Part shown: positions 57,470 through 63,802 of the stretch, piece after piece
Numbering within the stretch: position 1 is the first letter of the stretch
Layout: each line of letters starts with the position of its first letter
DNA from: Candidatus Eiseniibacteriota bacterium
GTDB lineage: Bacteria; Acidobacteriota; Terriglobia; Acidiferrales; UBA7541
DNA length: 64,000 nt
Direction: 5' to 3'
NCBI GenBank assembly: GCA_035607085.1
Contig: DATMZI010000096.1
Location: forward strand, 4,227-68,226
Position numbers and translations under genes: made by a program
The notes under the pieces: generated by a model
Database searches by the model: none
What the model saw: the letters and a program-made list of their open reading frames with translations, nothing else
Told to the model about the DNA's origin: nothing

Positions 57470-57639
57470 GTTTGTGGTGGAGCATCTCTCCTGCTAACTT
57501 CTGAAAGAAGTGTCGAAGGCGTTTGCCGTAGTCAGAGGCGCGCGAGAACGTTAGAATACGGGGCAGTCGTGGTGGCAATTCCATCGGTTAAGTGGAAGTC
57601 GTCCCAGCCATAGAAAACCAGAAAGGTAAGCGCAGCGCT

Positions 57640-57945
57640 ATGATTTCCTTTTCGGAGCGCGCCGTAGTTCCGTCCCATGTGCTGATTCGCTTTCTGGAGC
57701 AGGAATCGGTGCTGTTGAACCTGGAAACGGAGCGGTACTTTGGGTTGGATGCGGTGGGGACACGGATGTGGCAGGTTGTGACGGCGGCGGCGACGGTAGA
57801 GGCGGCGCTGGCGCAACTGGTGCAAGAATACGACACCTCGCCGGAGACGCTACGCACGGACCTGACCAATTTGCTGCAGCACCTGGTGGAAAACGGATTG
57901 ATTGCGACGCAACCCGCAGATGTGGGCACGGCTTCGTCGGTTTAG
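57640..57945 (+). CDS. PqqD-family RiPP recognition element (lasso B1)
   Basis: ESVLLNLETERYFGLDAVGTRMW..L..EYD..LRTDL..LL..L.ENGLI; adjacent to B2 and C genes. Confidence 0.93.
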   Translation: MISFSERAVVPSHVLIRFLEQESVLLNLETERYFGLDAVGTRMWQVVTAAATVEAALAQLVQEYDTSPETLRTDLTNLLQHLVENGLIATQPADVGTASSV

Positions 57946-58375
57946 CGCGCTGCCGCGCGCTGCGAAGATGGACTTCGTGCGGGCGTCGCTGCTGTTGCCT
58001 CTGATTCGAATGAGCCTGCGTTTGCGCGGATTTCGCGCCACACAAAAATCCTTGCAGTTACGGATTGGACGAGGCGTGGCGGCGTTGTCGGAGTCTGCCG
58101 CGGCTGACGAAACAAAGCAGACGTGCCGAATGGTATTTGCAGCAGCGCGCTATTCGCCGATTTCCGTCACTTGTCTGGAACGATCGCTGGTGTTGTGGTG
58201 GCTGCTGGCGCGACGAGGAATGGCAACGCAGCTCCGCATCGGGGCGCGAAAATCCGGTAAGAAATTTGAAGCGCACGCTTGGTTAGAACAGAATGGCGTG
58301 GCCATAGGCGAGCCTGACGGCACGCACCTGCACTATGCTGCGTTCGAGAAAGAATTCTCCGAGGAAATTTCGTGA
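57920..58375 (+). CDS. Lasso leader peptidase B2 (transglutaminase-like)
   Basis: TCLERSL (Cys), LRIG, FEAHAWLE (His). Confidence 0.93.
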   Translation: MWARLRRFSALPRAAKMDFVRASLLLPLIRMSLRLRGFRATQKSLQLRIGRGVAALSESAAADETKQTCRMVFAAARYSPISVTCLERSLVLWWLLARRGMATQLRIGARKSGKKFEAHAWLEQNGVAIGEPDGTHLHYAAFEKEFSEEIS

Positions 58376-60231
58376 GCGGCTTTGCGGGCATTGTGCGGAT
58401 GGAGCCAACGCTGGACACCGCTGAAGCCGACCGCGCGGCCATCGCGCGCATGGCGGAGGCCATTGCGTTTCGTGGGCCAGACGCTCAGCAGCAGTTCAGC
58501 CGGGACGGGGCATCGTTCGCGTTCTCACTATTGACTACCGGGCCAGCGCCGCAAGCGGCGGAGCAGCCGTTGACGCTGGATGGGGAAACGTTCTTCCTAG
58601 GCGAAGCGCGCGTTGACGGGCGAGGCGAACTAATCGCCAAGTTACAGCAGCACAGTGCCGAGGTCCTACCGTCGAGCGGTGACGAGCAGCTGGTACTCAA
58701 TTTTATTGCTCTCTTTGGTATTGAGTCGCTGCCCCAACTCGACGGCGATTTCAGTTTTGTGTTGTGGAAACCGCGCGAGCGCAGACTATTCGCGTTTCGC
58801 GACCTCAGCGGCTCAAGGCCGTTTTTCTACTCACAGAGTGGCGGCCAACTCGTTTTCAGCAACACGCTACAGGCACTGTTAGTCTCCGGAAACGTCGCTC
58901 GCCGCGACTACGATCAACAGTTCATTGCGAACTTTCTGCTTGGCGCTCCCCATTTCGATGCGGAGAGGACGATCTATCGCGATGTTCGCAGGCTTCCAGC
59001 CGGGAACTTGTTGGACTTTTTTTCCGGCGAAGTTTCTTCGCGCTCCATCGCCAGATACCCGATCGAGGAACTGCTTTCATTCCGGCGGGATGACGAGGTG
59101 CTCGACGAATTTCGGCGGTTGTTTATGCTAGCCGTTCGCGATCGCCTGCCAGAATCGGACACGACGATCCTTTTAAGCGGCGGGCTGGACTCCACCAGCG
59201 TCGCAGCGGCCGCGGTTGCCGAGCGGAAGAGCCAAAACAACCCCAACCTGAAGCTCAACGCTTTTACACTCGATTTCTGTCCGCTGTTTCAGGACGAAGA
59301 AGCCTCACTGGCACAGGATTTTGCAGAGTCTCTCAATCTTCCATTCCAGCTGATTCACTTGGCGCACATTCTTCCGCTGGTCGGTGCGGACGGCGGGCCT
59401 TTCAAGCTGCCCGAGCCATGCGATTATCCTTACCCGGGACTTCAACAGTTTTACGTTTCGCGCTTTCGTCCGGATTCGCGGGTTGTGTTGAGCGGAGATG
59501 GTGGAGACGAAATTATGAGAGCGGAGGGCGCACCGTTCCTCCGCGATCTGAGTTCGCGCTTCGGCAAGGCTCGTGCGGCGATGGTGGTATTGGATTACAT
59601 ATTCTCGCGCCGGCGCCTGCCGGCATTGGGAGCCGGACTGCGCATCCGCTTTTTGCGGCTGATCGGAAAAGGCGCGCAGCTTCCCACTTTCCCGACATGG
59701 ATCGAACCTGCGTTTGAGAGGCAATTTGAGCTCCGCAAGCGATTTCTCGAACTTACGGAAAAGCCTTCGTCCGCCCATCCCTGGCATCCCTGGTCGTACG
59801 CCAAACTCGTTCGCTTCATTCCGCCGCTAATGGAAGGGCAAGATGCCATGTTTAGCGGCCGCCCGCTTGAGGTACGTGCCCCATTTCTCGACCGGCGCCT
59901 GATCCGATTCCTGCTTTGCCTGCCGCCCATTCCCTGGTACATGGAAAAGGAGTTACTTCGGCGAGCACAGCGCGGCGTCCTGCCGGATGAAATTCGTCTT
60001 CGGCCGAAAGTGCCGCTCCAGCACGATCCCCTTGAGTTGCACGTTGCTGCGGGAAAGTGGTCTCCGAGCGCACCGGACGTGTGCCCACCTGCTCTCCGAG
60101 GCATGATTGACTGGCCACGCCTGCAGCATTCCTTGACAATCGCCCACGGTACCGAGTTATATGTACATCTGTGCCCGGTCCTGCTAGCTCTCTGGCTAAA
60201 CGCTGTTGAAAAGAGCGATTGGATTCAGTAG
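58372..60231 (+). CDS. Lasso cyclase (asparagine-synthetase-like, protein C)
   Basis: MSGFAG (Ntn Cys replaced by Ser), RGPD, RD.SG.RP, LSGGLDS, SGDGGDE, PFLDRRL, RPK; GTGA overlap with B2. Confidence 0.93.
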   Translation: MSGFAGIVRMEPTLDTAEADRAAIARMAEAIAFRGPDAQQQFSRDGASFAFSLLTTGPAPQAAEQPLTLDGETFFLGEARVDGRGELIAKLQQHSAEVLPSSGDEQLVLNFIALFGIESLPQLDGDFSFVLWKPRERRLFAFRDLSGSRPFFYSQSGGQLVFSNTLQALLVSGNVARRDYDQQFIANFLLGAPHFDAERTIYRDVRRLPAGNLLDFFSGEVSSRSIARYPIEELLSFRRDDEVLDEFRRLFMLAVRDRLPESDTTILLSGGLDSTSVAAAAVAERKSQNNPNLKLNAFTLDFCPLFQDEEASLAQDFAESLNLPFQLIHLAHILPLVGADGGPFKLPEPCDYPYPGLQQFYVSRFRPDSRVVLSGDGGDEIMRAEGAPFLRDLSSRFGKARAAMVVLDYIFSRRRLPALGAGLRIRFLRLIGKGAQLPTFPTWIEPAFERQFELRKRFLELTEKPSSAHPWHPWSYAKLVRFIPPLMEGQDAMFSGRPLEVRAPFLDRRLIRFLLCLPPIPWYMEKELLRRAQRGVLPDEIRLRPKVPLQHDPLELHVAAGKWSPSAPDVCPPALRGMIDWPRLQHSLTIAHGTELYVHLCPVLLALWLNAVEKSDWIQ

Positions 60232-60251
60232 AGTCGAAACAGGAGATTTCC

Positions 60252-60392
60252 ATGAAGCCACCGGCGGAAGTCGCACCGAAAAAGAACTACGTGCCGCCGC
60301 AATTATTGAAGTACGGAACTCTAACCGAAATGACCGCGGCCGCCGGCAAAGGGGCTCATGCGGACGCGTCGAAGGGAAAAAGCAAGACCTAA
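60252..60392 (+). CDS. Lasso peptide precursor A (46 aa, not in ORF track)
   Basis: SD AGGAG; MKPPAEVAPKKNYVPPQLLKYGTLTEMTA-AAGKGAHADASKGKSKT; YxxPxL leader motif, Thr at -2, Asp at +9. Confidence 0.92.
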   Translation: MKPPAEVAPKKNYVPPQLLKYGTLTEMTAAAGKGAHADASKGKSKT

Positions 60393-60426
60393 GACTCCGC
60401 GTCCGACCTGTGAATATCCCCATACG

Positions 60427-61431
60427 ATGGACTATTGGGCCTATGGCTTAAGTATTACTTCAAATGTGGAAATACCGGCCTTCGGAACTTTCACAAGCTT
60501 AGGGACTTTCGATATCAGTTTCCAAATGGGTCCGGCTCCAAGCTGGGCCGATGAGGCCTCTTCCGATCGCGGCGAAGTTGTTTATTCACCTTCCTTGCCG
60601 GCGCGGACCGACTCAAAACTGACGATTACCCGGCTGCTCTCTGGAAAATTCCTGGAACTCCGTTATGACGACGGGACCCGGTTCATTATGGATGGAGGAG
60701 CAAAGTCGATATGGGCTGAAGAAGGCCCCGGCCTGAGCCGCGACGACGTCTTCACCTATCTCGTTGGTCCTATCATGGGCTTTGTTTTACGGCGCCGGGA
60801 AAAACTGGCGCTCCACGCAAGCTCGGTTATTGTCGATGACATGGCAATTGCAATCTGTGGAGAAGCTGGATCGGGCAAATCAACGACTGCTGCAGCGCTT
60901 GCTCTCCGGGGCAATCAGGTGTTATGCGAAGACATTTGTGCCTTGCAGAATTTGTATGGGCACAAATATGTGTTGCCCGCTTACCCGAGAATCAGCTTGT
61001 GGCCAGATTCGGCGAGCCGCCTGTTCTCTTCCGCCGATGTCTTGCCGCTGGTCGCCAAAGGGTGGGATAAGCGGTATCTCCAGCTCGATGGGCAGCGGGC
61101 TGGCTTTAGCAACAGTCCGGCACCGCTCGGTGCGATCTATTTGCTGGCTGCGCGTTCGGATGCGCGGACCGCGCCATCTATTGAGCGGCTATCGCAGAGA
61201 GAAGCGGCGCTGGCCCTTGTGCAAAACACATATATGAATTACCTTTTGACGAAAAAGCAGCGTGCCGCCGAATTTTACACAATAGCCAGTTTGGTGAGCG
61301 AAGTGGATTGCTACTGCATCACTCCTCACGCCGATCCCGCGCGCATCCGGGACTTGGCGTTACTGGTAGAGGCGCACGCGACTAATTTTATATCCGGGCT
61401 GAAATCTTCCTCCGCCCACTTAGTGCCCTGA
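60427..61431 (+). CDS. HPr kinase-like lasso peptide kinase
   Basis: LHAS, Walker A GEAGSGKST, CED; directly after the precursor. Confidence 0.85.
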   Translation: MDYWAYGLSITSNVEIPAFGTFTSLGTFDISFQMGPAPSWADEASSDRGEVVYSPSLPARTDSKLTITRLLSGKFLELRYDDGTRFIMDGGAKSIWAEEGPGLSRDDVFTYLVGPIMGFVLRRREKLALHASSVIVDDMAIAICGEAGSGKSTTAAALALRGNQVLCEDICALQNLYGHKYVLPAYPRISLWPDSASRLFSSADVLPLVAKGWDKRYLQLDGQRAGFSNSPAPLGAIYLLAARSDARTAPSIERLSQREAALALVQNTYMNYLLTKKQRAAEFYTIASLVSEVDCYCITPHADPARIRDLALLVEAHATNFISGLKSSSAHLVP

Positions 61432-62570
61432 TGTACAGCCTTGAGCAGTTCGCCAACATGTTCTCCGACCCGCTGCGCATGGACGCTTATCGCGGCGCGA
61501 TTGCCAAATACGTTCAGCCCGGCAACGTGGTCGTGGATCTTGGCTGCGGTCCCGGTGTTTTTGCTCTTCTCGCTTGCAAAGCCGGCGCTCGCCGGGTGTA
61601 CGCGATCGACCTGAATGGCATCGTGGATTTCGGCCGGCATTTGGCTGCGGCGAATGGCATGGCCGACCGCATCCATTTCCTGTGTGGAGATTCTCGGCAA
61701 ATTCATTTACCAGAACGCGCGGACGTGATTGTCTCGGACGTAAGGGGAGCATTGCCCCTTCACTCTCATGCCATCGAAACCATCGAAGACGCGCGCGAAC
61801 GTTTCCTGGCCCCGGGCGGCCGACTGCTTCCCTCAAGTGACACGTTGGTGTGCGCCCTGGTCGAGAATGAAAAGACGTACCGGGAAATCTGCGATGCTTG
61901 GAAGTCCCTTCCTCAACTGGATCTTTCTGCTGGTCTTCCGCTGGCATTGAACAGCATCTATAGCGAAAAACTCGAGCCCGACAATCTAATTTCGAGCCCT
62001 GCACCATGGCTTAAGCTTGACTACACGGTCGGCGCCAAAACTCACGTGTCGGGGCAATTACATCTCACCGCGTCCAGGGACGCAACAGGTCATGGGCTTG
62101 GTATGTGGTTTGAAACACAGCTCGGCGACGGATTTGGTTACTCCACGGCCCCGGGAAACGGCGATCGCGTTTATGGTCACAGATTCCTGCCATGGCTTGA
62201 ACCGGTTCGGCTGCGCAAGGGAGACGTTTGCTCGGTGACGTTGGGCGCCCACTTTGTCGGAGGCAATTACATTTGGCAATGGGAGATACAGATGCCGGCC
62301 ACGGCTAATCGAGCGCCGGTGCACATGCGGCAATCCACGTTTTACGGGGGCGTTTTGTCCCCCTCCTATCTCAAAAAGCATTCTAGTGATTTCGTACCAG
62401 TGCTCACGGAAACTGGGCTCGCTGAATCCTGGCTGTTTCAAGCTATCGATGGCAGGCGTTCGCTGGAAGAGATTGCCCGCGCGGCCACGAAAGCCTTTCC
62501 GCAAGTGTTTCGCCGCGTCGAAGACGCCTACAGCCGAGCCGCTGAAATCGCCGAAAGATTTTCCCGCTGA
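61431..62570 (+). CDS. PRMT-fold class I SAM methyltransferase with C-terminal PqqD/RRE-like helical domain
   Basis: D.LR..AY, VVDLGCGPG, ADVIVSD, LAPGGRLLP, beta-barrel HGLGMWFE; tail LTETG..W..IDGRRSLEEIA; TGATG coupling. Confidence 0.85.
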   Translation: MYSLEQFANMFSDPLRMDAYRGAIAKYVQPGNVVVDLGCGPGVFALLACKAGARRVYAIDLNGIVDFGRHLAAANGMADRIHFLCGDSRQIHLPERADVIVSDVRGALPLHSHAIETIEDARERFLAPGGRLLPSSDTLVCALVENEKTYREICDAWKSLPQLDLSAGLPLALNSIYSEKLEPDNLISSPAPWLKLDYTVGAKTHVSGQLHLTASRDATGHGLGMWFETQLGDGFGYSTAPGNGDRVYGHRFLPWLEPVRLRKGDVCSVTLGAHFVGGNYIWQWEIQMPATANRAPVHMRQSTFYGGVLSPSYLKKHSSDFVPVLTETGLAESWLFQAIDGRRSLEEIARAATKAFPQVFRRVEDAYSRAAEIAERFSR

Positions 62571-62626: not shown

Positions 62627-63802
62627 CTGCCGTCTCTGTTTCCACCTGCTAGCAATTTAACCGCTAATTGGCGGCTCCTGCTTGCCGCTTGTTCAGTCCC
62701 TCATGACGCCGCAAGGATTGCGGCTCTCGCGCTGGAGAATGAAGGAGTTGATGCCTTGCTGGATCTTGCTGGCGCACACGGAGTCATTCCTCACTTGGCT
62801 CGCGTGGTGGGTCAGACAGATTCCAACTCTTTGCCCTCCGCACTAGTGGAGGCGGTTCGCGCACCATGGAAGCGCCAGTTGCTTAAGTCCATGTCCTTGA
62901 CAGCAGAGCTGTTCCGTGTGGCTGCGCTCCTAGAGCAAGCGCCAATCGCGTTTTTGGTGACGAAAGGACCGGCGCTCGCGGCTCGCGCCTACGGCGACGT
63001 TGTTGCCAGACAGTACCGAGACTTCGACTTGTTGATCGGCCACGCCGATATTTTTCAGGCGGCGAAACTTCTGACTAGTGCAGGTTACGCGTCAGATACA
63101 AGTCTGAAAGCGTCGCAGTCCGGGCGTGTTCCCGGAGAATATATCTTTCAAAAACCCGAGACGGATCTGATCTTCGAGCTGCATACCGAACGGAGCTTCC
63201 GCTACTATCCGCGCCCGTTGCCCATCGAGGACTTCTTTCTTCGCAAAACGATTGTCTTAATGGATGGGCGCCCCGTGCCGGCCCTCTCGCTTGAGGATGA
63301 ATTCGTCCTGATTTCCATCCACGGCGCAAAGCATTTTTGGGAACGCCTGATGTGGATTTCGGATGTGGCCGCCCTGGTGCATCGCCATCCGGAACTCGAT
63401 TGGAGTCGCGTCCGCCAGTCCGCGGCCGATGTCGGCGCGGAGCGCATGGTCCGCGTGGCGTTGTTGCTGGCCGAGCGAGTGTTGCGGGTGCCGATTCCAA
63501 ACGAAATGAAAAAGGAGGTCGCCGCCGATTCGGCCTGCCTGTCTATCGTTAAAAAAATTGAAACGTGGCTGCCTTATGCTGGCCAGCAACCGCCTCAATT
63601 GATGCAACGCGCGCTTTTTCGTTTCCGCATGCGCGGGCAATTGGTCGACGGGGCCCGTTATCTTACGCGTCTGTCGCTGTCGCCCACGGAAGAAGACTGG
63701 TCAGCCGATGCAGAATCTGCCGAAGCCCCGTGGCGCGAAGCTCTCAGCCGGCCGTTTCGCCTGGCCAAGAAATATCGCCGCGATTCGAAGGGGCCGCACT
63801 AA
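62627..63802 (+). CDS. Nucleotidyltransferase family protein (NTP_transf_5-like), proposed CTG start
   Basis: KGPALA..YGD..R.Y.DFDLL, ELH, HGAKH.W.RL.W..D; SD GAGGAG 7 nt before CTG 62627. Confidence 0.85.
   Translation: MPSLFPPASNLTANWRLLLAACSVPHDAARIAALALENEGVDALLDLAGAHGVIPHLARVVGQTDSNSLPSALVEAVRAPWKRQLLKSMSLTAELFRVAALLEQAPIAFLVTKGPALAARAYGDVVARQYRDFDLLIGHADIFQAAKLLTSAGYASDTSLKASQSGRVPGEYIFQKPETDLIFELHTERSFRYYPRPLPIEDFFLRKTIVLMDGRPVPALSLEDEFVLISIHGAKHFWERLMWISDVAALVHRHPELDWSRVRQSAADVGAERMVRVALLLAERVLRVPIPNEMKKEVAADSACLSIVKKIETWLPYAGQQPPQLMQRALFRFRMRGQLVDGARYLTRLSLSPTEEDWSADAESAEAPWREALSRPFRLAKKYRRDSKGPH

What the first reader, a model, noticed from the sequence alone, without database searches (positions are those of the whole stretch)
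60252..60392. Unlisted lasso precursor with predicted core AAGKGAHADASKGKSKT
Seen: SD AGGAG 6 nt before ATG, a 46-codon ORF between cyclase and kinase, leader YVPPQL (YxxPxL) and G-T-L-T-E-M-T-A with Thr at -2. The only acidic core residue is Asp9, which predicts an Ala1-Asp9 macrolactam (the paeninodin ring size). The ORF is below the ORF-track cutoff, so standard annotation may miss it.
Basis: partly seen in the sequence, partly recalled or inferred. Interest (0 to 1): 0.85.

Follow-up and report, generated by a model that had tools for sequence, protein, structure and literature searches.

The report
Lasso peptide precursor gene, soil Acidobacteriota
The 46-codon ORF is a genuine, conserved and transcribed precursor gene for a knotted ("lasso") peptide in a kinase/nucleotidyltransferase-type cluster of a soil acidobacterium; it is an uncharacterised member of a known kind, and public gene callers already list it.

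Summary
ORF 60252-60392 (+) encodes MKPPAEVAPKKNYVPPQLLKYGTLTEMTA|AAGKGAHADASKGKSKT. AGGAG lies 6 nt upstream. The ORF sits between the lasso cyclase and an HprK-like kinase, in the gene order B1-B2-C-A-kinase-PRMT-like methyltransferase-NTP_transf_5.

It is a real gene. pN/pS is 0.20 overall and 0.08 over leader residues 13-29. Metagenome contigs share the same gene order, and a soil metatranscriptome contig covers just this gene.

The leader register Y-17/P-14/L-12/T-2 matches the experimentally studied BsfA leader. Among 66 family representatives, Thr-2 is kept in 65 and Leu-12 in 62. Position 1 is A/S/T/G in 61, and the first acidic residue is at position 9 in 39. Asp9 is invariant in the 15 close homologs. 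An Ala1-Asp9 ring is therefore the best prediction.

The C-terminal Lys-Thr/Ser is conserved. It is the likely target of the kinase and then of the nucleotidyltransferase, as in pseudomycoidin.

The claim that annotation may miss the gene fails. The exact protein is already in NCBI nr, IMG, ENA and Logan, and its homologs are named only "hypothetical protein".

Verdict: a new member of a known kind, of modest interest. The open points are Thr instead of Ser, no bulky plug residue, and a PRMT-like enzyme with no Arg in the core.

The parts
60241..60245 (+). Shine-Dalgarno AGGAG, 6 nt before the ATG
   Evidence: Read directly. ACAGGAGA is conserved in 6 of 7 orthologous loci.
60252..60392 (+). 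Lasso precursor gene (A): 46 codons plus TAA
60252..60338 (+). Leader peptide, 29 residues (MKPPAEVAPKKNYVPPQLLKYGTLTEMTA)
   Evidence: Register Y-17, P-14, L-12, G-8, T-2. KYGTLTEMT is invariant in 15 homologs.
60288..60305 (+). YVPPQL, the YxxPxL motif predicted to be bound by B1/RRE
   Evidence: Y13, P15 and P16 are invariant. L-12 is kept in 62 of 66 family representatives. The spacing matches BsfA Tyr-17/Pro-14/Leu-12 (PMC10368454).
60333..60335 (+). Thr28, the penultimate leader residue (-2)
   Evidence: Invariant in close homologs. Thr in 65 of 66 representatives.
60339..60389 (+). Predicted core AAGKGAHADASKGKSKT (17 aa, net charge about +3)
60363..60365 (+). Asp38 = core Asp9, the predicted isopeptide acceptor and only acidic core residue
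   Evidence: Invariant in 15 close homologs and 16 same-genus copies.
60387..60389 (+). C-terminal Thr46 (core Thr17), the predicted phosphorylation site
   Evidence: Lys-Thr or Lys-Ser ends all 15 close homologs. An S/T lies within the last 4 residues in 61 of 66 representatives. The site assignment is by analogy with PadeK/PsmK (PMC6993621).
57640..57945 (+). B1 / PqqD-type RRE (the listed ORF starts at 57592; orthologs are 101 aa, which gives 57640)
   Evidence: PF05402, 61.6 bits. Ortholog gene calls.
57902..58375 (+). B2 leader peptidase
   Evidence: NF033537, 84.8 bits against a cut-off of 33. It is the only B2 in the genome.
58372..60231 (+). Lasso cyclase (C), Asn-synthase-like
   Evidence: PF00733, 108.5 bits. 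Best NCBIfam hit is lass_lactam_cya at 195 bits, below its 525 cut-off.
60427..61431 (+). HprK-like peptide kinase
   Evidence: TIGR04352 and PF07475 hits, both below cut-off. Motif H130, G145, G148, G150, K151, S152, E168, D169 is invariant in 6 orthologs.
61431..62570 (+). PRMT-like SAM methyltransferase (accessory; present in only part of the genus)
   Evidence: PDB PRMT1/PRMT6 at E about 1e-26. Pfam PrmA and PRMT_C. Distribution.
62756..63802 (+). NTP_transf_5 nucleotidyltransferase (PsmN-type by annotation class)
   Evidence: PF14907, 157 bits. Next to the kinase, or to the kinase and MT, in 8 of 16 same-genus genomes.

Best explanation
The ORF is the precursor (A) gene of a class II lasso peptide. 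It belongs to a split-B cluster of a soil acidobacterium close to Candidatus Acidoferrum.

Shown here: the gene is real, conserved under purifying selection, syntenic and transcribed. Its leader carries Y-17xxP-14xL-12...G-8...T-2 in the canonical register.

Inferred from characterised systems:
- The PqqD-type B1 binds the YxxPxL segment and presents the peptide.
- The HprK-like kinase phosphorylates the linear precursor on the conserved C-terminal Lys-Thr hydroxyl.
- B2 cuts between Ala29 and Ala30.
- The cyclase adenylates the Asp38 side chain and joins it to the new Ala30 amine. This gives a 9-residue Ala1-Asp9 macrolactam with an 8-residue tail (ASKGKSKT).
- The NTP_transf_5 enzyme then decorates the phosphate, with hexose(s) in pseudomycoidin.
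- The PRMT-like enzyme adds methyl group(s) at an unknown site.

The tail has no bulky residue, so the C-terminal decoration may be what holds the tail in the ring.
For: Context: B1, B2 and C lie immediately upstream, and the kinase, MT and NT immediately downstream, all on the same strand.

Coding: pN/pS is 0.20, and 0.08 in the recognition segment.

Homologs: 14 close ones at 67-98% identity keep Y13, P15-P16, KYGTLTEMT, A30, D38 and the C-terminal K-[TS] invariant. Sixteen same-genus copies keep YxxPxL, T-2 and D9; three of the four read with their flanks lie right after a cyclase.

Family: of 66 representatives, T-2 is kept in 65, L-12 in 62, position 1 is A/S/T/G in 61, and the first acid is at position 9 in 39.

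Register: identical to BsfA Tyr-17/Pro-14/Leu-12.

Synteny: A-K-(MT)-NT across the genus, and identical order in metagenome contigs.

Expression: a 240-nt soil metatranscriptome contig covers only 60217-60432 at 97% identity.

Enzymes: the kinase catalytic motif is invariant.

[quoted passage not shown] BsfK accepts Thr in place of Ser.
Against: There is no chemical evidence for cleavage site, ring, threading or any modification.

The peptide scores below the curated cut-offs of the two NCBIfam lasso precursor models: 23.5 against 33, and 13.8 against 19.

The characterised C-terminal kinases act on Ser, and this peptide ends in Thr.

The kinase has Glu where characterised ones have the first Asp.

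Gly3 is nearly as conserved as Ala1, so a later ring start cannot be excluded from sequence alone.

Fourteen of 66 family representatives have their first acid at position 10 or 11. The T-2 to acid spacing is therefore not rigid in the family.

The tail has no bulky plug residue and the cluster has no exporter. Unmodified pseudomycoidin was found not to be threaded.

The RNA evidence is a single low-depth contig in a library that may contain DNA.
Confidence: 0.8

Rival explanations
1. It is a lasso precursor, but the ring starts later. Either Gly32 gives a Gly1-Asp7 seven-residue ring, or Ala31 gives an eight-residue ring. The leader would then end two or one residues further on, and Thr28 would be at -4 or -3.
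For: Gly at the third predicted core position is nearly invariant in close homologs (14 of 15) and in most same-genus copies. Position 1 is hypervariable in the genus (A/S/T/K/Q/R/M/N). Gly is the commonest ring-forming residue in known lasso peptides (general knowledge).
Against: The register Y-17/P-14/L-12/T-2 fits only cleavage after Ala29. Family-wide, position 3 is Gly in only 32 of 66, whereas position 1 is A/S/T/G in 61 of 66. P0014 has Ala at position 3 and P0015 has Gln at position 2, while Ala1 is invariant in the clade. The kinase-type relatives paeninodin and pseudomycoidin use Ala1 with a 9-residue ring. Non-Gly position 1 is now documented even for Asn (PMC12670498).
Confidence: 0.1
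2. The precursor is processed and cyclised, or only cleaved, but the mature product is not a threaded lasso. It would be a branched-cyclic or essentially linear phospho-decorated cationic peptide, and its function would lie in the C-terminal phospho-adduct.
For: The tail ASKGKSKT has no aromatic, Arg or other bulky plug for a 9-residue ring (sequence). Unmodified pseudomycoidin behaved as unthreaded (PMC6993621). Related kinase/NT/RRE cassettes make linear polyphosphorylated peptides without any cyclase (PMC13381572). The cluster has no exporter or isopeptidase.
Against: An intact cyclase with both GATase and Asn-synthase domains is conserved next to the precursor in every ortholog. Asp9 is invariant. 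Both argue that ring closure is selected. Threading cannot be judged from sequence.
Confidence: 0.09
3. The ORF is a chance open frame in the cyclase-kinase spacer and is not translated.
For: It is short and has no match above threshold in curated libraries.
Against: pN/pS is 0.08-0.20 with many synonymous changes. The SD is conserved. There are dozens of homologs with the same architecture in the same position. An RNA contig covers it.
Confidence: 0.01

Closest known systems
Pseudomycoidin (psm cluster, Bacillus pseudomycoides DSM 12442; PMC6993621)
   Same: Split B1/B2, a cyclase, an HprK-like kinase and an 'uncharacterised NTP transferase' all in the cluster. Ala1 and a 9-residue ring. A hydroxyl residue at the very C-terminus that is (poly)phosphorylated and then hexosylated. 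The modification was proposed to act as the lock for threading.
   Different: Ring acceptor is Glu9 there and Asp9 here. The C-terminus is Ser there and Thr here. The psm cluster has an ABC exporter; this one has none. Gene order differs. No PRMT-like methyltransferase in psm. Different phylum (Bacillota versus Acidobacteriota). The core here is shorter (17 aa) and strongly cationic. No detectable sequence-level family match was obtained.
Paeninodin (pade cluster, Paenibacillus dendritiformis C454; Zhu et al. 2016, as summarised in PMC9266682 and PMC8498205)
   Same: Ala1-Asp ring and an HprK-like kinase that acts on the linear precursor at the C-terminal hydroxyl residue.
   Different: Strictly C-terminal Ser, an exporter present, no nucleotidyltransferase and no methyltransferase. 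The primary paper could not be read here.
BsfA / bsf cluster of Bradymonas sediminis (PMC10368454)
   Same: The same leader register (Tyr-17, Pro-14, Leu-12). Kinase plus nucleotidyltransferase tailoring set. The kinase motif H-G-G-G-K-S-D-D is in the same register. B1 assists the kinase. Thr is accepted in place of Ser.
   Different: Bsf has Ile at -2 and phosphorylates Ser3 of the core. Here -2 is Thr and position 3 is Gly, so the site must differ. Bsf has an ABC transporter.
Acidobacteriia soil-metagenome lasso BGCs 44.1 and 482.1 (PMC9064862)
   Same: B1-B2-C-A gene order with A genes of 141-150 bp, from uncultured soil Acidobacteriia. One was labelled 'Predicted lasso peptide' by antiSMASH.
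   Different: Those clusters carry other accessory genes (ABC transporter; aminoglycoside-phosphotransferase-type kinase). Their precursor sequences were not compared here.
NCBIfam NF033528 lasso_cyano / NF033535 lass_lactam_cya (cyanobacterial-type lasso peptide and cyclase)
   Same: These are the best-scoring curated models for both the precursor (residues 10-38) and the cyclase.
   Different: Both scores are below the curated cut-offs (23.5 against 33; 195 against 525), so this is not a member by NCBI's criteria.

Membership tests
Lasso peptide precursor (class II, split-B pathway) | Small ORF co-oriented with, and adjacent to, the RRE (B1), B2 peptidase and Asn-synthase-like cyclase | tested here: met
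   PF05402, NF033537 (above cut-off) and PF00733 lie directly upstream. The same holds in all orthologous contigs.
Lasso peptide precursor (class II, split-B pathway) | Leader YxxPxL motif and penultimate Thr at canonical spacing | tested here: met
   Y-17, P-14, L-12, T-2, matching BsfA. T-2 in 65 of 66 and L-12 in 62 of 66 family representatives.
Lasso peptide precursor (class II, split-B pathway) | Asp or Glu at core position 7-9, and a small residue at position 1 | tested here: met
   Asp9 is the only acidic core residue, and position 1 is Ala. Both are invariant in 15 homologs.
Lasso peptide precursor (class II, split-B pathway) | Isopeptide macrolactam with the tail threaded through the ring | not testable with these tools
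   Needs MS/MS, NMR or ion mobility. The tail lacks an obvious plug residue.
NCBIfam lasso precursor models (NF033528 lasso_cyano, NF033521 lasso_leader_L3) | Score at or above the curated cut-off | tested here: not met
   23.5 against 33 bits, and 13.8 against 19 bits.
Phosphorylated / phosphoglycosylated lasso peptides (paeninodin, pseudomycoidin type) | HprK-like kinase in the cluster with the catalytic His / P-loop Lys / Asp-Asp motif | tested here: inconclusive
   The motif is in the exact BsfK register and is invariant in 6 orthologs, but it reads Glu168-Asp169 instead of Asp-Asp. Pfam and NCBIfam HprK hits are below cut-off.
Phosphorylated / phosphoglycosylated lasso peptides (paeninodin, pseudomycoidin type) | Conserved C-terminal Ser as the phosphorylation site | tested here: not met
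   The window peptide ends in Thr. Of 15 close homologs, 12 end in Thr and 3 in Ser. More distant relatives carry the [KR]-T 1-4 residues from the end.
Phosphorylated / phosphoglycosylated lasso peptides (paeninodin, pseudomycoidin type) | NTP_transf_5-type nucleotidyltransferase (pseudomycoidin subtype) | tested here: met
   PF14907, 157 bits against a cut-off of 31. Next to the kinase, or to the kinase and MT, in 8 of 16 same-genus genomes. Direct homology to PsmN itself was not tested.
Phosphorylated / phosphoglycosylated lasso peptides (paeninodin, pseudomycoidin type) | Dedicated ABC exporter (D gene) | tested here: not met
   None lies between the upstream TPR gene and the convergent rhodanese/lactamase_B gene, in the window or in the orthologous contigs.

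The most novel reading that the evidence does not exclude
The mature product is a lasso peptide locked by its post-translational modification. The plug-less, Lys-rich tail would be held in a 9-residue ring only by a bulky group built on the C-terminal phospho-threonine by the kinase and the NTP_transf_5 enzyme. A PRMT-fold enzyme would add a further tailoring step, acting on a substrate that has no arginine (Lys, His or the phospho-adduct). That would give the first Thr-phosphorylated lasso peptide, and a PRMT-type methyltransferase as a lasso tailoring enzyme, for which no report was found in the held literature.
Probability: 0.2. Interest if true: 0.6.

Novelty: new member of a known kind. 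Interest (0 to 1): 0.3.

Why it matters
No lasso peptide from Acidobacteriota has been isolated, as far as the held literature shows. This cluster recurs in many soil and rhizosphere metagenomes. It gives a compact, well-defined test case of seven genes and a 17-residue core.

Expressing it would address three questions left open by the paeninodin and pseudomycoidin work. Can C-terminal Thr be phosphorylated? What does the NTP_transf_5 enzyme actually attach? Can such a modification serve as the steric lock?

The precursor itself is an ordinary, correctly predicted A gene. It is not a hidden or new kind of element.

Tried and rejected
- The longer TTG start at 60219 (57 aa) was rejected. That sequence is not in public collections. 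All orthologs are called from the MKP start, and the SD fits the ATG.
- The kinase start at 60358, which would overlap the precursor, was rejected. Relatives align from residue 2-3 of the 60427 start.
- An 8-bp hairpin at 60361-60405 spanning the stop codon has z = -2.2, but it is not conserved in orthologous loci. It was not pursued as an attenuator.
- A sigma-70-like site at 60206-60234 and a terminator-like site at 60435-60451 are no more than the shuffles give. The RNA contig also starts upstream of the implied +1.
- P0018 (1906 aa, 10 stretches) from the profile search is an unrelated repeat protein and a false positive.
- The primary paeninodin paper is not held.
- A literature search by the motif LTEMT, and by 'arginine methyltransferase' plus 'lasso peptide', found nothing relevant.
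- Most loci from related genomes were not available in the Python box. Family tabulation therefore used sequences pasted from tool outputs.
- No leader-B1 complex model could be made, because the structure tool folds single chains only.

Full report
**What is there.**
- An ATG at 60252 opens a 46-codon frame that ends with TAA at 60390-60392.
- AGGAG lies at 60241-60245, with a 6-nt spacer.
- The product is MKPPAEVAPKKNYVPPQLLKYGTLTEMTAAAGKGAHADASKGKSKT.
- The gene begins 20 nt after the stop of a 619-aa Asn-synthase-like protein (58372-60231).
- It ends 34 nt before the supported start (60427) of an HprK-like kinase.
- The listed longer kinase ORF, from 60358, would overlap the peptide gene. 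However, orthologs align only from residue 2-3 of the 60427 start.

**The neighbourhood.** Pfam and NCBIfam scans give the following genes on the + strand:

| Gene | Coordinates | Evidence |
|---|---|---|
| B1, PqqD-type RRE | 57640-57945 | PF05402, 61.6 bits |
| B2 peptidase | 57902-58375 | NF033537, 84.8 bits (cut-off 33) |
| Cyclase | 58372-60231 | PF00733 plus GATase domains; best NCBIfam model lass_lactam_cya, below cut-off |
| Small ORF (A) | 60252-60392 | see below |
| HprK-related kinase | 60427-61431 | hits below cut-off |
| Methyltransferase | 61431-62570 | closest solved relatives are eukaryotic PRMT1/PRMT6, E about 1e-26 |
| Nucleotidyltransferase | 62756-63802 | NTP_transf_5, PF14907, 157 bits |

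- This is the only B2 in the 5.3-Mb genome, and the only copy of the peptide.
- The closest named genome is a Candidatus Acidoferrum MAG, with a cyclase 72% identical.
- The sequence recurs in many soil and rhizosphere metagenomes.

**Is it a real gene?** Yes.
- The exact 46-aa protein is already in NCBI, NCBI nr, IMG, ENA and Logan.
- A word-based search found 12 clusters of 46-47 aa homologs at 69-98% identity. Their contigs show the same order: queD/E/C, TPR, B1, B2, C, A, kinase, MT, NT, then a convergent rhodanese/lactamase_B gene. The small gene is called by the JGI, ENA and Logan pipelines.
- Across five orthologous genes, pN/pS is 0.20 overall and 0.08 for residues 13-29, with abundant synonymous change.
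- The SD is conserved in 6 of 7 loci.
- A soil metatranscriptome holds a 240-nt contig that matches only 60217-60432 at 97% identity. That span is the SD, the ORF and about 40 nt downstream, with nothing from the flanking genes. This is weak evidence: one low-depth contig, in a library where DNA carry-over is possible. It does fit the usual excess of precursor mRNA.
- The contig's five coding differences are all non-synonymous (L19S, A35V, A37G, K43M), and four of them lie in the core.

**Leader and core.**
- Counting back from Ala29, the leader has Y-17, P-14, L-12, G-8 and T-2. This is the register reported for the experimentally dissected BsfA leader, Tyr-17/Pro-14/Leu-12 (PMC10368454).
- In the 15-sequence alignment, Y13, P15, P16, KYGTLTEMT, A30, G34, D38 and K45 are invariant. 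The last residue is Thr in 12 and Ser in 3.
- Sixteen more divergent copies in same-genus genomes keep the pattern YxxPxL-xx-YG-x5-T-x | x8-D. Three of the four read with their flanks lie directly after a cyclase gene.
- A profile search of 1.84 billion representatives returned 72 hits at E<=1e-3. I tabulated the 66 sequences that carry the leader register: 65 of those representatives plus the window's own peptide:

| Feature | Count of 66 |
|---|---|
| Thr at -2 | 65 |
| Leu at -12 | 62 |
| Core position 1 is A/S/T/G | 61 (A 36) |
| First acidic residue at position 9 | 39 |
| First acidic residue at position 8 | 10 |
| First acidic residue at position 10 | 12 |
| First acidic residue at position 11 | 2 |
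| S/T within the last four residues | 61 |

- The Ala1-Asp9 assignment is the best reading for three reasons. Only cleavage after Ala29 fits the canonical register. Ala1 is invariant in the clade, whereas position 2 (Gln in P0015) and position 3 (Ala in P0014) are not. Asp9 is the only acid in the core.
- A later start at Gly3 (a seven-residue ring) remains a minority alternative. Gly3 is well conserved in the genus, but it is Gly in only 32 of 66 family-wide.

**How it most likely works.** Steps shown here are gene presence, conservation, synteny and the motif register. All enzymology is inferred from characterised relatives.
- In paeninodin and pseudomycoidin, the ring is Ala1 to Asp/Glu9. 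The HprK-like kinase phosphorylates the C-terminal Ser of the linear precursor. In pseudomycoidin, the 'uncharacterised NTP transferase' PsmN is needed to add one or two hexoses to that phosphate. Unmodified pseudomycoidin was not threaded, and the authors proposed the bulky adduct as a lock (PMC6993621; PMC9266682; PMC8498205).
- In the Bsf system, B1 accelerates the kinase as well as B2 cleavage, and Thr is accepted in place of Ser.
- Here the kinase keeps H130, G145, G148, G150, K151, S152, E168 and D169, invariant in six orthologs. These lie in the exact BsfK register, with Glu in place of the first Asp.
- A-K-NT is the conserved core of the arrangement across the genus. The PRMT-like gene is inserted between K and NT only in a subset.
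- The conserved hydroxyl is the Thr/Ser of a [KR]-[TS] motif at, or 1-4 residues from, the C-terminus. For this peptide, Thr46 is therefore the likely phospho-site.
- The tail ASKGKSKT has no bulky residue. A modification-dependent lock is thus plausible but untested.
- The target of the PRMT-like enzyme is unknown, because this core has no Arg.

**Comparison and novelty.**
- Kinase-type and kinase-plus-NT lasso clusters are established in Bacillota, Proteobacteria and Bradymonadales.
- Acidobacterial B1-B2-C-A clusters with 141-150 bp A genes have been recovered from soil, and antiSMASH labelled one of them 'Predicted lasso peptide' (PMC9064862).
- The window peptide scores below the cut-offs of NCBIfam's lasso precursor models, and its homologs are named only 'hypothetical protein'. 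Its function is thus unannotated, but the gene is not missed.
- I found no report of this peptide family, or of a PRMT-type lasso tailoring enzyme, in the held literature. That is absence in one library only.
- I file it as a new, uncharacterised member of a known kind. The specific unresolved features belong more to the cluster than to the precursor ORF: Thr terminus, plug-less cationic tail, PRMT-like enzyme, no exporter.

**Verdict.** The precursor and core interpretation is supported by comparative evidence. The 'unlisted' claim is not supported. Interest is modest at 0.3. The most novel reading still open, a modification-locked lasso with phospho-Thr and PRMT-type tailoring, has about a one-in-five chance.

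Noticed in passing
Family representatives P0025, P0040, P0043, P0049, P0054, P0057-P0059, P0063, P0064, P0073, P0075 (acid at 10); P0045, P0047 (acid at 11): With the same leader register and Thr-2, 14 of 66 family representatives have their first acidic residue at core position 10 or 11. This implies either rings larger than any characterised lasso or a shifted cleavage site.
   Followed up: partly
L003, L007, L010, L012, L014, L015, L017 (same-genus genomes): A subfamily with leader YGTVRELT-x and core x-V-G-x-x-G-x-x-D has Lys, Gln, Arg or Met at predicted core position 1. These are unusual ring-forming residues; only Asn1 (metanodin, PMC12670498) was recently shown as a non-canonical case.
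   Followed up: no
window 61431-62570; G019, G036, G028, G011, G031: The PRMT-homologous methyltransferase (E about 1e-26 to PRMT1/PRMT6) sits between the kinase and NT in only part of the genus. The window-clade cores contain no arginine, while other MT-bearing clusters have G-M-R-[RK]-T tails.
   Followed up: partly
window 60217-60432 (metatranscriptome run X25): The only RNA contig found covers just the precursor gene. Its allele differs by five coding changes, all non-synonymous and four in the core, which suggests rapid core diversification between close strains.
   Followed up: partly
P0019, P0039, P0028: Some family members are single ORFs containing two (P0019, P0039) or four (P0028) tandem leader-core units. 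These are fused or multi-core precursors.
   Followed up: no
L013 (G005:C10:107420-107533); G020:C6:110966-111949: One same-genus precursor copy has an in-frame TGA in the leader (IAN*PYQAPKL) and no ATG at the usual start. One kinase ortholog has an in-frame TAG. These may be decaying clusters or assembly errors.
   Followed up: no
window 60361-60405: A perfect 8-bp inverted repeat (CGGACGCG / CGCGTCCG) spans the 3' end of the precursor ORF and its stop. The fold has z = -2.2, but it is not conserved in orthologous loci.
   Followed up: yes
window 60928-60933 (kinase residues 168-169): The kinase has Glu-Asp where characterised lasso kinases have the metal-binding Asp-Asp. The Glu is invariant in six orthologs.
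   Followed up: partly
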